Assembly (NCBI RefSeq): GCF_000026545.1
Contig: NC_011601.1
Reading direction: 5' to 3' (one strand)
DNA from: Escherichia coli O127:H6 str. E2348/69
GTDB taxonomy: Bacteria > Pseudomonadota > Gammaproteobacteria > Enterobacterales > Enterobacteriaceae
DNA: 64,000 bases
This document shows, piece by piece, positions 9,001 to 12,000 of this stretch. Every line of letters begins with the position of its first letter. Position 1 is the first letter of the stretch. The position numbers are program-made.

Positions 9001-12000
9001 ACGCGCTCGCCGGTGACGGGCTGGAAAGTGTCGCCCGCACCGTACTTATCAGTCTGGTGGTGAAGTGTCAGACGACGCTTGAACGGCTGAACCAGAACCC
9101 GGACATCCCGCCGCAGGAGTCCGTCGAACTGCTGGCGAGTCTGTCTGACAGTCTCAGTAAGGCGGTGTCCAGCAGTAAAAAAATCCTGCCGGAAACCGAC
9201 CGGCTGGCCACGGCACTGGAAGTGGTGCAGCGGCTCGGCGCGTTCATCAAGGAGCGTCACCCGGCACAGTATGCCCCGTTTCTTGAGGTGCTCGAAGGCT
9301 TCGCTAAAGAGCTTGAGGATAATTTCAGTTAACCACAGCGGCCCGGTTTTCCGGGCCGTCTGATATTCGGGATTTGTAATGCAAAAACAGATTATTGGTA
9401 ACGCAACGTTGTATTGCGGTGATGTTCTTGATGTGCTGCCGGCGTTATCCGAACGTTTTGATGCCGTCATTACCGACCCGCCTTACAGCAGTGGTGGCAC
9501 ACATAAATCAGACCGCAGCATGGCCCCTTCGGACAAGTATGTCGGTCACACCCAGTATGCCGAGTTCAGCGGGGATAACCGCGACCAGCGCAGCTGGGCA
9601 TACTGGAGCACCCTGTGGATGTCCGGGGCTGCCCGCCTTGTGCGCCCCGGTGGTTATGTCATGGTGTTCAGTGACTGGCGACAGCTTCCCACCATGACCG
9701 ACGTTTTTCAGGCCGGTGGTGTGCTGTGGCGTGGTCTTGTTGTCTGGGATAAAACGCAGGCTTCCCGTGCGCCACACACCGGCTATTTCCGGCATCAGGC
9801 CGAGTATGTGGTCTGGGGCAGCAACGGAAAACTCGACAAATGCCCGCACGGTGGCCCGTTCCCGGGTGTGATTACGCAGCGCGTTGTCCCGTCCGAAAAA
9901 CTGCATATGACGGCAAAGCCAGTTCAGTTGATGGCCGAGCTGGTTAAACCGCTGGCACCGGATGCGCACGTTCTCGATCCGTTTATGGGAAGCGGCACCA
10001 CCGCCATCCCTGTACTGGCCCGTGGCGGACGGTTTACCGGCATTGAAATGACTAACCAGTATTTTGATATCGCCTGCGCACGTCTCGAAAAAGCGCAGGC
10101 AGAAGCAGCGCAGGTGTGACGTGGCAAAACGTAAACTTTCCATTAAAGAGTTTCAGAGAAGCTTACAGGAGTACATCGCCAACCTCCGCCAGACCATTGA
10201 GGCTGAATGTCTGGGGTTCGATGTAAACCCGCAGGCCACACAGGCCCGCCGGGCGGCAGTCTGTGACCCGGTGACGGGCTACGATTATTTTGTCGAAAAC
10301 TATTTCCCGCACTACGTCCGCAACCCGGCAAAAAGCGAGCTGCATAAATACCTGTTCAGCCGTCTGCCACAGGTTGTGGCAAGCCCGGACCCGGAGAACG
10401 ACGCCATCGCCGCGCCCCGTGGTGAAGCAAAATCCACGCTGGTGACTCAGCTGTTTACCCTGTGGAACATTATCCGGGCCATTAAACATTATCCGGTCAT
10501 CATTATGGACAGTATCGACCAGGCTTATCCGATGCTGGAAGCCATCAAGGCTGAACTGGAATTTAACCCCCGTTTAAAAAACGATTTCCCGGAAGTGTGC
10601 GGACAGGGGCGCGTCTGGCGTATGGGGACCATCGTCACGGCCAACAATATCAAGGTGACCGTTGCTGGTAGTGGTAAAAAACTGCGTGGGCTGCGCCACG
10701 GTCCGTACCGTCCTGACCTGGTTATCCTCGACGACATCGAGAACGACGAGATGGTGCGTAGCCCGGAGCAGCGCGACAAGCTGCATGACTGGCTTACCAA
10801 AACCGTGATGCCGCTGGGCGAGGCTGGCGGTAAAACCGATATTATTTATATCGGAACCATCCTGCATTACGACTCCGTGCTGTCGCGCACACTCAATAAC
10901 CCGATGTGGAAAACAGCCCGCTTTAAGGCTGTTATTCAGTGGCCTGCCAACATGAAACTGTGGGACGAGTGGGAAGAACTCATCCGCAACAAACAGCCGG
11001 AAGCAGCGGAGGCACTTTACCGACAGAACGAAGCCGACATGCTCGCCGGGTCGGTGGTGTCATGGGCGGCGCGTCCCCTGCTGGCGCTGATGAAAATCCG
11101 TGTCCGTGACGGTCATGACACCTTTGATTCTGAATACCAGAACGACCCGGTCAGCGGTGAAGATGCGCTGTTTGCGGGCTGCATTAAGTTCTGGGTTAAC
11201 CGTCTTGATGAATGGGTGTTTTATGGTGCTGTTGACCCCAGTCTCGGGAAGAAGAATAAAAACCGCGACCCGTCGGCCATTCTCGTGGGGGGCTTTAACC
11301 GTTTTACCGGCATTCTGGATGTGGTTGAAGCCGATATCCGCCGACGCCTGCCAAATAAACTTATCGAAGACGTGATTAAGTATCAGCGGGAATACCACTG
11401 TCTGTGCTGGTCGTTTGAGTCCGTCCAGTTTCAGGAGTTTCTGCGCACCGTGCTGGTTGAGCGTTCGGCGGCGCTGGGCGTTCCGGTTCCGGCGCTGCCG
11501 GTCATCCCGCTGGAGGATAAAGCGCTGCGTATCGAATCCCTTCAGCCGCATATGGCCAACGGCCTGATCCGCATCAGTCCGGCACATCAGACGCTGATTG
11601 ACCAGCTGCGCCACTACCCCAAAGCCGACCACGATGATGGCCCGGACTGTCTGCACATGCTGTGGACGCTGGCGGTATCGCGTAGCGCAAAATTTCAGAT
11701 ACACACCCCACGCAGCACCGGGCGTGACCGTGGCGGGCGTTTTGGTTCAGGAGGATGGTAATTAATGGCACAGCTTGTTGATATTTACGGACGCCCGCTG
11801 AAATGTGAGGCACTCAAAACCACGCAGTCGGTCAGAGTGGCGGAACGGCTGCGCATTTATCCAGACCACCCGTCGCGTGGTCTGAACATCAGAAAACTGC
11901 CGCGCATTCTGGAAGCTGCCGAACGCGGCTATCTTCCGGCGCAGGCGATGCTGTTTGCGGACATGGAAGAACGTGATGGCCATCTGTTCGCCGAGATGGA

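What the first reader, a model, noticed from the sequence alone, without database searches (positions are those of the whole stretch)
9379..10121. Orphan DNA methyltransferase wedged between the small and large terminase genes
The protein has a DPPY motif before an FxGSGTT motif, the order seen in beta-class N6-adenine and N4-cytosine methyltransferases. No nuclease partner is nearby, and the large terminase GTG start lies 2 nt after its stop, so it is co-expressed with packaging genes. This prophage's Mu-type right end, where a Mom-like modification function would normally sit, is deleted. The enzyme could protect phage DNA from host restriction or change host methylation in the lysogen.
Basis: partly seen in the sequence, partly recalled or inferred. 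Interest (0 to 1): 0.5.

Follow-up and report, generated by a model that had tools for sequence, protein, structure and literature searches.

The report
Prophage DNA methyltransferase beside terminase gene
This is an intact but ordinary phage DNA methyltransferase with no restriction-enzyme partner, carried as an optional extra gene just upstream of the large terminase gene in a Mu-like prophage of E. coli E2348/69, most likely made late in infection to protect phage DNA from restriction.

Summary
Window 9379-10119 (+) is a 246-aa ORF with TDPPY (residues 32-36) ahead of FMGSGTT (202-208). It matches Pfam PF01555 and PHROG 67, and its predicted fold matches beta-class enzymes (CcrM, M1.HpyAVI, M.BceJIV). 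All catalytic motifs are invariant in 41 homologues, and dN/dS is 0.04-0.09. RefSeq already annotates it as DNA-methyltransferase (WP_001171800.1) in E. coli E2348/69.

It lies between a DUF1804 DNA-binding gene (in the small-terminase position) and terL, whose GTG start follows its TGA stop after one base. No nuclease partner is present.

New context: the gene is optional cargo. Of 54 E. coli genomes with this terS-terL region, 35 carry it and 19 do not. The cassette is 9368-10110, and its last codons and stop are the resident terL ribosome-binding region. Relatives hold other small genes in the same slot.

No promoter-like or terminator-like site flanks it, so it is probably expressed only with the late genes. 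That favours self-protection of phage DNA and argues against methylation in the lysogen.

The "deleted Mu right end / missing Mom" argument is weak. attR is intact, only an invertase gene is truncated, and relatives have no mom gene. Target sequence and target base remain unknown. Ordinary; low interest.

The parts
8832..9332 (+). DUF1804 / PHROG 756 DNA-binding protein in the small-terminase position. It is the upstream neighbour of the methyltransferase.
   Evidence: About 50% identical to the 'DNA binding protein' that sits in the same genomic region of D3112/DMS3-type transposable phages.
9338..9359 (+). GC-rich hairpin (GCGGCCCGG-TTTT-CCGGGCCGT) belonging to the phage backbone. It is present both with and without the methyltransferase and sits directly upstream of the ribosome-binding site of the next gene.
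   Evidence: Folding the 81-nt stretch 9320-9400 that contains it gives dG -27.7 kcal/mol, z -3.9. It is conserved, with covarying outer pairs, in Yersinia and IMG/VR relatives. It is not scored as a terminator and has no Rfam match.
9368..10110 (+). The presence/absence cassette: 743 bp that replace 'TGTATAC' of the empty site.
   Evidence: Comparison of filled and empty sites against E. coli OkiPb01701 and IMG/VR loci.
9379..10119 (+). Methyltransferase ORF, 246 aa (RefSeq WP_001171800.1).
9475..9486 (+). Motif IV, DPPY (residues 33-36): the catalytic motif.
   Evidence: TDPPYSSG is invariant in 41 homologues.
9982..10002 (+). Motif I, FMGSGTT (residues 202-208): the S-adenosylmethionine-binding motif.
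   Evidence: D200, F202, G204 and S205 are invariant. This region aligns to the solved beta-class enzymes.
10111..10123 (+). Shared junction CAGGTGTGAC-GTG. It holds the terL Shine-Dalgarno sequence (AGGTG), the methyltransferase's last two codons and stop, and the terL GTG start.
   Evidence: Identical in the empty sites ('ACCAGGTGTGACGTG').
10121..11761 (+). Large terminase subunit (terL).
   Evidence: PHROG 38 E 1e-142; TIGR01630; RefSeq terL.

Best explanation
The gene encodes a functional, solitary, S-adenosylmethionine-dependent beta-class DNA amino-methyltransferase, probably N6-adenine specific. It is accessory cargo of a Mu-like transposable prophage and has been docked, as little more than a bare ORF, between the hairpin that follows the DUF1804 gene and the translation-initiation region of terL.

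Because it has no promoter-like or terminator-like site of its own, it is most likely transcribed only as part of the late lysis-packaging-head gene block and translated in tandem with terL. It would then methylate replicated phage DNA shortly before or during headful packaging, so that progeny DNA enters the next host already protected against restriction enzymes whose sites overlap its target.

Shown: the identity and intactness of the enzyme, purifying selection, the absence of a nuclease partner, the operon embedding, and its optional status. Inferred: late-only expression, the target base, and the anti-restriction role. Unknown: the recognition sequence.
For: Enzyme identity:
- Pfam PF01555, PHROG 67 and PADLOC MTase_II over its full length.
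- Motifs TDPPYSSG, HxTxKP, DxFxGS and GxE are invariant across 41 homologues of 54-83% identity.
- The AlphaFold model (pLDDT 84) matches CcrM, M1.HpyAVI and M.BceJIV at Foldseek probability 1.0.

Selection:
- dN/dS is 0.04-0.09 against the E. coli Ec55, Yersinia and Serratia orthologues in the same slot.

Expression context:
- From 7159 to beyond 14513 the genes run in one direction, overlapping or 1-4 nt apart in most cases; the widest gaps are 74 nt (8606-8679) and the 46-nt spacer before the methyltransferase.
- No sigma-70-like promoter lies between 6234 and 12000, and no + strand terminator-like site lies downstream of 7336.
- The stop codon and the terL Shine-Dalgarno sequence are shared.

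Optional cargo:
- 35 of 54 E. coli genomes with this terS-terL region carry the gene and 19 lack it, with flanks 97-98% identical.
- 13 versus 7 among the E. coli-type IMG/VR contigs.
- The homologue in Salmonella Mu-like prophages sits between holin and lysozyme in the same late block.

Precedents:
- The prophage methyltransferases M.EcoGI and M.EcoGII are silent in the lysogen (PMC5778455).
- Modification genes placed just upstream of the large terminase gene are a reported pattern (PMC6536676, citing Iyer et al. 2013).
Against: - No expression or methylation data exist for this gene; no paper on an E2348/69 methylome was found.
- The consensus scan cannot see activator-dependent or weak internal promoters, so low expression in the lysogen is not excluded.
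- The recognition sequence is unknown, so protection against any particular restriction system is untested.
- DPPY favours adenine-N6, but an N4-cytosine enzyme (8s9m) is also among the fold matches.
Confidence: 0.7

Rival explanations
1. Lysogenic-conversion epigenetic regulator. The methyltransferase is expressed from the resident prophage and changes host chromosome methylation and gene expression.
For: Orphan methyltransferases can act as regulators (general knowledge; Dam, CcrM). The promoter scan only detects sigma-70 consensus sites.
Against: The gene sits deep in the late lysis-packaging block with no promoter-like site for more than 3 kb upstream. Comparable prophage methyltransferases are silent in lysogens (PMC5778455, PMC6602927). 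Typical lysogeny-expressed morons carry their own promoter and terminator, and this cassette has neither.
Confidence: 0.1
2. Packaging-control role. Methylation of the phage pac region or of replicated DNA is needed for, or regulates, terminase cleavage, as Dam methylation does for the P1 pac site (own knowledge).
For: The gene is adjacent to and translationally coupled with terL. The literature suggests that modification genes next to the large terminase gene act during packaging (PMC6536676).
Against: Nineteen of 54 otherwise 97-98% identical terS-terL modules lack the gene entirely, so packaging does not depend on it. In Salmonella relatives the gene is in the lysis cluster, not next to terL. 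In P2-like phages it sits near the integrase.
Confidence: 0.05
3. The target base is cytosine-N4 rather than adenine-N6. This is a sub-claim and is compatible with the same biological role.
For: The PF01555 family includes both activities. The rotifer N4-cytosine methyltransferase 8s9m is a fold and sequence match.
Against: The motif is DPPY, not the SPP(Y/F) typical of N4-cytosine enzymes (own knowledge). The best sequence matches among solved structures are adenine enzymes: M1.HpyAVI at E 3e-15 against 7.5e-8 for the N4 enzyme. Source annotations of homologues say adenine-specific.
Confidence: 0.12
4. Decaying or inactive remnant with no current function.
For: The host prophage shows some decay, namely a truncated invertase gene.
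Against: The ORF is full length, all catalytic motifs are invariant and dN/dS is 0.04-0.09.
Confidence: 0.03

Closest known systems
Phage-encoded orphan beta-class N6-adenine methyltransferases, e.g. prophage-borne M.EcoGI/M.EcoGII of E. coli O104:H4 (PMC5778455)
   Same: Beta-class motif order (DPPY then FxGxG), carried on a prophage, and no nuclease partner. M.EcoGI/II are silent in the lysogen and thought to switch on at induction. The presumed role is anti-restriction.
   Different: M.EcoGII is 349 aa; this protein is 246 aa, and no direct sequence comparison between the two was made here. M.EcoGII is proven to be non-specific, whereas the specificity here is unknown.
Bordetella phage BPP-1 Bpm and P2-like phage methyltransferases (Escherichia phage Chuche, Stenotrophomonas Smp131)
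   Same: These are true homologues over the full length, at 46-55% identity.
   Different: They sit in different genomic slots. In Chuche the gene directly follows a Com-type zinc-finger translational regulator, and Smp131 has an annotated translational regulator beside it. Here there is no Com and the gene is fused into the late operon. As far as I could find, none has a published recognition sequence.
Phage Mu com-mom late DNA-modification module (own knowledge)
   Same: Analogous logic: a late-expressed adenine modification of phage DNA that blocks restriction in the next host, in a transposable myovirus.
   Different: It is not homologous. No Mom or Com homologue is present, the chemistry differs (methylation versus acetamido modification), and the position differs (packaging module versus right end). 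The two relatives examined have no mom gene.
DNA-modification genes in the 'ParB-Tls locus' upstream of the large terminase gene (Iyer et al. 2013, as summarised in PMC6536676)
   Same: A methyltransferase lies immediately upstream of the large terminase gene and downstream of a DNA-binding protein gene.
   Different: The upstream protein is DUF1804, and no ParB domain is on record for it. The methyltransferase has no ParB fusion.
Solved beta-class enzymes CcrM (6pbd), M1.HpyAVI (5hek/5hfj), M.BceJIV (8urk)
   Same: Same fold (Foldseek probability 1.0, TM 0.64-0.78) and the same motifs.
   Different: Only about 20-23% identical, so their specificities (GANTC, GAGG, GTWWAC) cannot be transferred.

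Membership tests
Beta-class DNA amino-methyltransferase (Pfam PF01555 N6_N4_Mtase) | Motif IV (D/S)PP(Y/F) lies N-terminal to motif I FxGxG | tested here: met
   DPPY at residues 33-36 and FMGSGTT at 202-208.
Beta-class DNA amino-methyltransferase (Pfam PF01555 N6_N4_Mtase) | Significant match to the family profile | tested here: met
   PF01555 E 4e-12 and 5e-8; PHROG 67 E 1e-55; PADLOC MTase_II E 8e-65. The NCBIfam subfamily and equivalog models (PRK13699, CcrM, YhdJ) all score below their curated cut-offs, so the protein belongs to none of those named subfamilies.
Beta-class DNA amino-methyltransferase (Pfam PF01555 N6_N4_Mtase) | Methyltransferase fold superimposable on solved beta-class enzymes | tested here: met
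   AlphaFold model with pLDDT 84. Foldseek top hits are CcrM, M1.HpyAVI and M.BceJIV, E 1e-16 to 1e-15.
Beta-class DNA amino-methyltransferase (Pfam PF01555 N6_N4_Mtase) | S-adenosylmethionine-dependent methyl transfer to DNA | not testable with these tools
   Needs cloning plus SMRT/nanopore sequencing or an in vitro assay.
Orphan (solitary) phage methyltransferase | No cognate restriction endonuclease gene nearby | tested here: met
   The prophage annotation contains no nuclease other than terL. In the stretch covered, the proteins annotated only as hypothetical are all under 160 aa.
N6-adenine-specific subgroup | The target base is adenine | tested here: inconclusive
   DPPY and the best solved matches favour adenine, but an N4-cytosine enzyme is also a fold match.
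Mu com-mom modification module | Mom-type modification enzyme with a Com zinc-finger translational activator near the right end | tested here: not met
   No Com homologue in the window. No mom is annotated. The enzyme is a methyltransferase located in the packaging module.
Classical phage moron | Autonomous cassette with its own promoter and terminator | tested here: not met
   The cassette is 9368-10110, essentially the ORF alone. No promoter-like or terminator-like site flanks it.
ParB-Tls modification locus | A ParB-like protein gene, or a ParB fusion, upstream of the modification gene and the large terminase gene | tested here: not met
   The upstream gene carries only DUF1804 (PF08822) on record. 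The methyltransferase has a single domain. The DUF1804 protein was not itself scanned against Pfam here.

The most novel reading that the evidence does not exclude
The junction between the DUF1804 gene and terL may be a dedicated docking slot in DUF1804-type transposable phages. Bare ORFs would be inserted behind a conserved hairpin and read into the resident terL ribosome-binding site and stop codon. The alternative cargos (this methyltransferase, reverse-strand 66-167-aa ORFs, 78-81-aa ORFs, a lipoprotein) would then form an exchangeable set of counter-defence or exclusion genes. The methyltransferase could have a very short or relaxed target that gives Mom-like broad protection. That might explain why homologues in P2-like phages are kept under Com-type translational control.
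Probability: 0.15. Interest if true: 0.45.

Novelty: already known. Interest (0 to 1): 0.15.

Why it matters
It matters little beyond annotation. Phage-borne solitary methyltransferases are common and their anti-restriction role is textbook. The gene is already named DNA-methyltransferase in RefSeq.

Three modest points could be useful:
- The enzyme's recognition sequence is uncharacterised even though the family is very large (more than 5900 homologues), so one cloning and SMRT experiment would annotate many genes.
- The clean natural presence/absence pairs give ready-made isogenic comparisons for measuring what a late-operon methyltransferase buys a transposable phage.
- The terS-terL junction is a cargo hotspot that could be mined for counter-defence genes.

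Tried and rejected
- **Characterised close homologue.** I looked for one that would give a recognition sequence. Megablast against isolated phages found nothing. The best phage proteins are 46-55% identical and uncharacterised. NCBIfam equivalogs (CcrM, YhdJ, PRK13699) score below their cut-offs. Solved structures are only about 20% identical. Specificity therefore cannot be inferred.
- **Published methylome or mention of this protein.** None was found for E2348/69 or WP_001171800. The O111 STEC methylome paper covers other enzymes (M.EcoGVI = ATGCAT/YhdJ type). The BPP-1 paper, Iyer et al. 2013 and the Murphy et al. review are not held.
- **'Methyltransferase compensates for a deleted Mom'.** Rejected. 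attR is intact and eutC is restorable, and relatives both with and without the methyltransferase lack gin, com and mom.
- **Hairpin at 9338-9359 as part of the cassette or a Com-type target.** Rejected as cassette-specific, because it is present in the empty sites too. There is no Com in the window and no Rfam family match.
- **Other cargo ORFs of the slot as known defence or anti-defence proteins.** There were no informative PHROG or PADLOC matches, except an 87-aa ORF that matches part of PHROG 'nucleotide kinase' families.
- **Exact target-site duplication length.** It is ambiguous: CACT at 4 bp, or ACACT at 5 bp if the terminal A is counted as flank. I did not pursue this.
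Full report
**Source and setting.** The window is identical to the chromosome of enteropathogenic E. coli O127:H6 strain E2348/69 (NZ_CP059840.2). The finding lies in a Mu-like transposable prophage. In order, the prophage carries a repressor, a Ner-like HTH gene, a Mu-type transposase, a MuB-like ATPase, a Mor-family activator, holins, a GH108 endolysin, DUF1804, the methyltransferase, terL, a Mu-type portal (DUF935), a MuF-like gene, protease, a gpT-type head gene, sheath, tape measure, baseplate and tail-fibre genes. The prophage is inserted in eutC. 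The window starts inside the MuB-like gene, so the left end lies outside it.

**Check of the observation.** The ORF at 9379-10119 (+) encodes 246 aa.
- DPPY is residues 33-36 and FMGSGTT is residues 202-208. Motif IV therefore precedes motif I, as in beta-class amino-methyltransferases.
- Profile matches are unambiguous: Pfam PF01555, PHROG 67 at E 1e-55, and a PADLOC Type II methyltransferase model over its full length at E 8e-65.
- NCBIfam subfamily models (PRK13699, CcrM, YhdJ) match only below their curated cut-offs, so it belongs to none of those named groups.
- In an alignment of 41 homologues (54-83% identical) the blocks TDPPYSSG, HxTxKP, DxFxGS and GxE are invariant.
- An AlphaFold model (pLDDT 84) superimposes on CcrM, M1.HpyAVI, M.BceJIV and other beta-class enzymes at Foldseek probability 1.0, but with only about 20% identity (sequence-level matches).
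- dN/dS against orthologues in E. coli Ec55, Yersinia and Serratia is 0.04-0.09, similar to the flanking genes.
- RefSeq already annotates the gene as DNA-methyltransferase, WP_001171800.1. Its 90% cluster has 440 member sequences, and more than 5900 homologues score E<=1e-20.

**Neighbours.**
- terL starts with GTG at 10121, one base after the TGA stop. RefSeq uses the same start.
- The upstream gene (8832-9332) is a DUF1804 / PHROG 756 'DNA binding protein', about 50% identical to the protein annotated 'DNA binding protein' in the same genomic region of D3112/DMS3-type Pseudomonas transposable phages. Calling it the small terminase is a reasonable positional inference and nothing more.
- No restriction nuclease is annotated in the prophage, and in the stretch covered the proteins annotated only as hypothetical are all under 160 aa. 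'Orphan' stands.

**The gene is optional cargo.**
- Megablast of the terS-terL stretch finds 54 E. coli genomes. Of these, 35 contain the methyltransferase and 19 have a 736-bp shorter version with flanks 97-98% identical.
- The 19 include eight near-identical OkiPb017xx isolates, so there are roughly a dozen independent lineages.
- Comparing filled and empty sites puts the cassette at 9368-10110.
- The empty site reads hairpin-TCTGATATT-TGTATAC-CAGGTGTGAC-GTG(terL). The filled site reads hairpin-TCTGATATT-CGGGATTTGTA-ATG...GCG-CAGGTGTGAC-GTG(terL).
- The cassette thus brings its own weak ribosome-binding site (GGGA). Its last two codons and its stop are the resident terL Shine-Dalgarno region.
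- The same holds in another lineage: IMG/VR locus L073, which is filled, ends CAGGGGTAAAC-GTG, and locus L087, which is empty, reads CAGGGGTAATT-GTG.
- Orthologues in Yersinia (83% identical) and Serratia (77%) occupy the identical slot with the same one-base spacer.
- In Salmonella Mu-like prophages a 63%-identical homologue instead sits between holin and lysozyme, with overlapping stop and start codons, in the same late block.

**The slot holds other cargo too.** I surveyed 80 IMG/VR loci encoding TerL relatives. The terS-terL gap takes these values:
- -16 to +55 nt (empty);
- 83-153 nt, 210-260 nt and 314-346 nt, where the ORFs I extracted are forward-strand and 36-87 aa long, apart from one reverse-strand 105-aa ORF (in the 260-nt gap, L031, only reverse-strand ORFs were called);
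- 467-597 nt (reverse-strand ORFs of 66-167 aa);
- 791 nt (the methyltransferase);
- 833-1235 nt (the methyltransferase plus extra sequence: a lipoprotein gene in L032 and other ORFs in L033).

The junction is therefore a variable cargo slot. The other cargos have no informative family matches.

**Expression (inferred).**
- From 7159 to beyond 14513 the genes run in one direction and mostly overlap or sit 1-4 nt apart; the widest gaps are 74 nt (8606-8679) and the 46-nt spacer carrying the hairpin.
- The consensus scan finds only one sigma-70-like promoter, at 6207-6234, before the Mor-family gene. It finds no + strand terminator-like site downstream of 7336.
- The 81-nt stretch 9320-9400 that contains the hairpin (9338-9359) folds strongly (dG -27.7 kcal/mol, z -3.9). 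The hairpin is conserved with covarying outer pairs, lacks a clear T run in E. coli, and is present with or without the cassette. It belongs to the backbone and may attenuate read-through.
- The most economical reading is therefore transcription only with the late genes and translational coupling to terL.
- This is consistent with M.EcoGI and M.EcoGII being silent in lysogens (PMC5778455) and with unexpressed prophage methyltransferases in STEC methylomes (PMC6602927).
- It argues against, but does not exclude, an effect on the lysogen's methylome.

**The 'deleted right end / missing Mom' argument.**
- The element's termini are TGTGGGGTAG...GCGAAGTTACA. The same termini bound independent insertions in fliH (strain OkiPb01701) and ypdF (strain Ec55).
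- In E2348/69 the right terminus is at window 31670. Repeated TTCTGGGC transposase-type motifs occur at both ends.
- Joining the two flanks after removing one copy of CACT restores an uninterrupted 295-aa EutC. The attachment end is therefore intact and the prophage is 35,736 bp.
- What is damaged is a Gin/Pin-type invertase gene, cut to 31 codons (31460-31552) and fused to the last ~100 bp of attR.
- OkiPb01701 (no methyltransferase) and Ec55 (with methyltransferase) both end directly after their tail-fibre genes, with no gin, com or mom. There is no evidence that a Mom-type gene ever sat there, and no anticorrelation between methyltransferase and Mom.
- In the P2-like Escherichia phage Chuche, a 55%-identical homologue directly follows a genuine Com-family zinc-finger regulator (PHROG 13819, E 2e-17). 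The Stenotrophomonas phage Smp131 record annotates a translational regulator beside its homologue. No Com homologue exists in this window.

**Mechanism.** The best-supported account is a late-expressed, solitary, probably adenine-N6 methyltransferase that marks replicated phage DNA before or during headful packaging, so that progeny DNA resists restriction in the next host.
- A role in packaging itself, like Dam methylation of the P1 pac site (own knowledge), is unlikely. Many nearly identical terS-terL modules lack the gene, and homologues sit elsewhere in other phages.
- Placement of modification genes just upstream of the large terminase gene is a described pattern, the 'ParB-Tls locus' (PMC6536676, citing Iyer et al. 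2013). Here, however, no ParB domain is on record for the upstream protein.
- The recognition sequence cannot be inferred. The nearest characterised proteins are about 20% identical, and the 46-55% identical phage homologues are uncharacterised.

**Verdict.** The supporting argument about a deleted Mom region is not supported, and an effect in the lysogen is unlikely. The feature is already annotated and belongs to a very common kind. The cargo-slot architecture is a small addition. Interest is low.

Noticed in passing
window 9338-9359: A GC-rich hairpin (GGCCCGG-N4-CCGGGCC core) follows the DUF1804 stop codon. It is conserved in E. coli, Yersinia and IMG/VR relatives with covarying outer base pairs. 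It always sits just upstream of the ribosome-binding site of the next gene, which is the methyltransferase or terL. In some relatives a T-rich tail follows, so it may be a leaky terminator or attenuator. It has no Rfam match.
   Followed up: partly
window 31460-31552 (invertase remnant); roughly 30500-31430 (invertible-type tail-fibre segment): A Gin/Pin-type DNA invertase gene is truncated to 31 codons and fused to the last ~100 bp of the prophage right end. The tail-fibre segment, with opposed gp53-like and tail-fibre-assembly genes, is therefore probably locked in one orientation. The closest match to this segment among E. coli genomes is in a P2-like prophage.
   Followed up: partly
L001 6557 (left end, outside the window) to window 31670: The prophage is 35,736 bp with termini TGTGGGGTAG...GAAGTTACA, inserted in eutC. 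Removing it together with one copy of CACT restores a 295-aa EutC. The same eut operon also carries an ISEc13 insertion in eutA, so ethanolamine utilisation is doubly disrupted in this strain.
   Followed up: yes
IMG/VR loci L037, L038, L039, L095; Salmonella locus L008 6898-7401: In relatives the terS-terL junction carries reverse-strand ORFs of 66-167 aa. One example is a 167-aa protein shared between an IMG/VR contig and Salmonella Mu-like prophages. None has an informative PHROG or PADLOC match. Their opposite orientation suggests lysogen-expressed cargo.
   Followed up: partly
window ~9600-9705 (methyltransferase residues 75-109): Two E. coli alleles of the methyltransferase differ almost only in a mosaic patch. 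The 150-nt bin covering it is 77% identical, against mostly 97-100% in the surrounding bins (one later bin is 91%). The patch covers the helix-strand-helix that follows the disordered loop, which suggests a recombination patch inside the gene.
   Followed up: no
L004 (Escherichia phage Chuche) 8794-9736: A Com-family zinc-finger translational regulator sits directly upstream of a 55%-identical homologue of this methyltransferase in a P2-like phage. This is a com-methyltransferase module analogous to Mu com-mom.
   Followed up: partly
window 5687-6234: A 158-aa protein with a signal-peptide-like N-terminus lies in the prophage early/middle region. It is followed by a strong terminator-like hairpin (6174-6194) and the only sigma-70-like promoter of the region (6207-6234), just before the Mor-family activator gene.
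   Followed up: no
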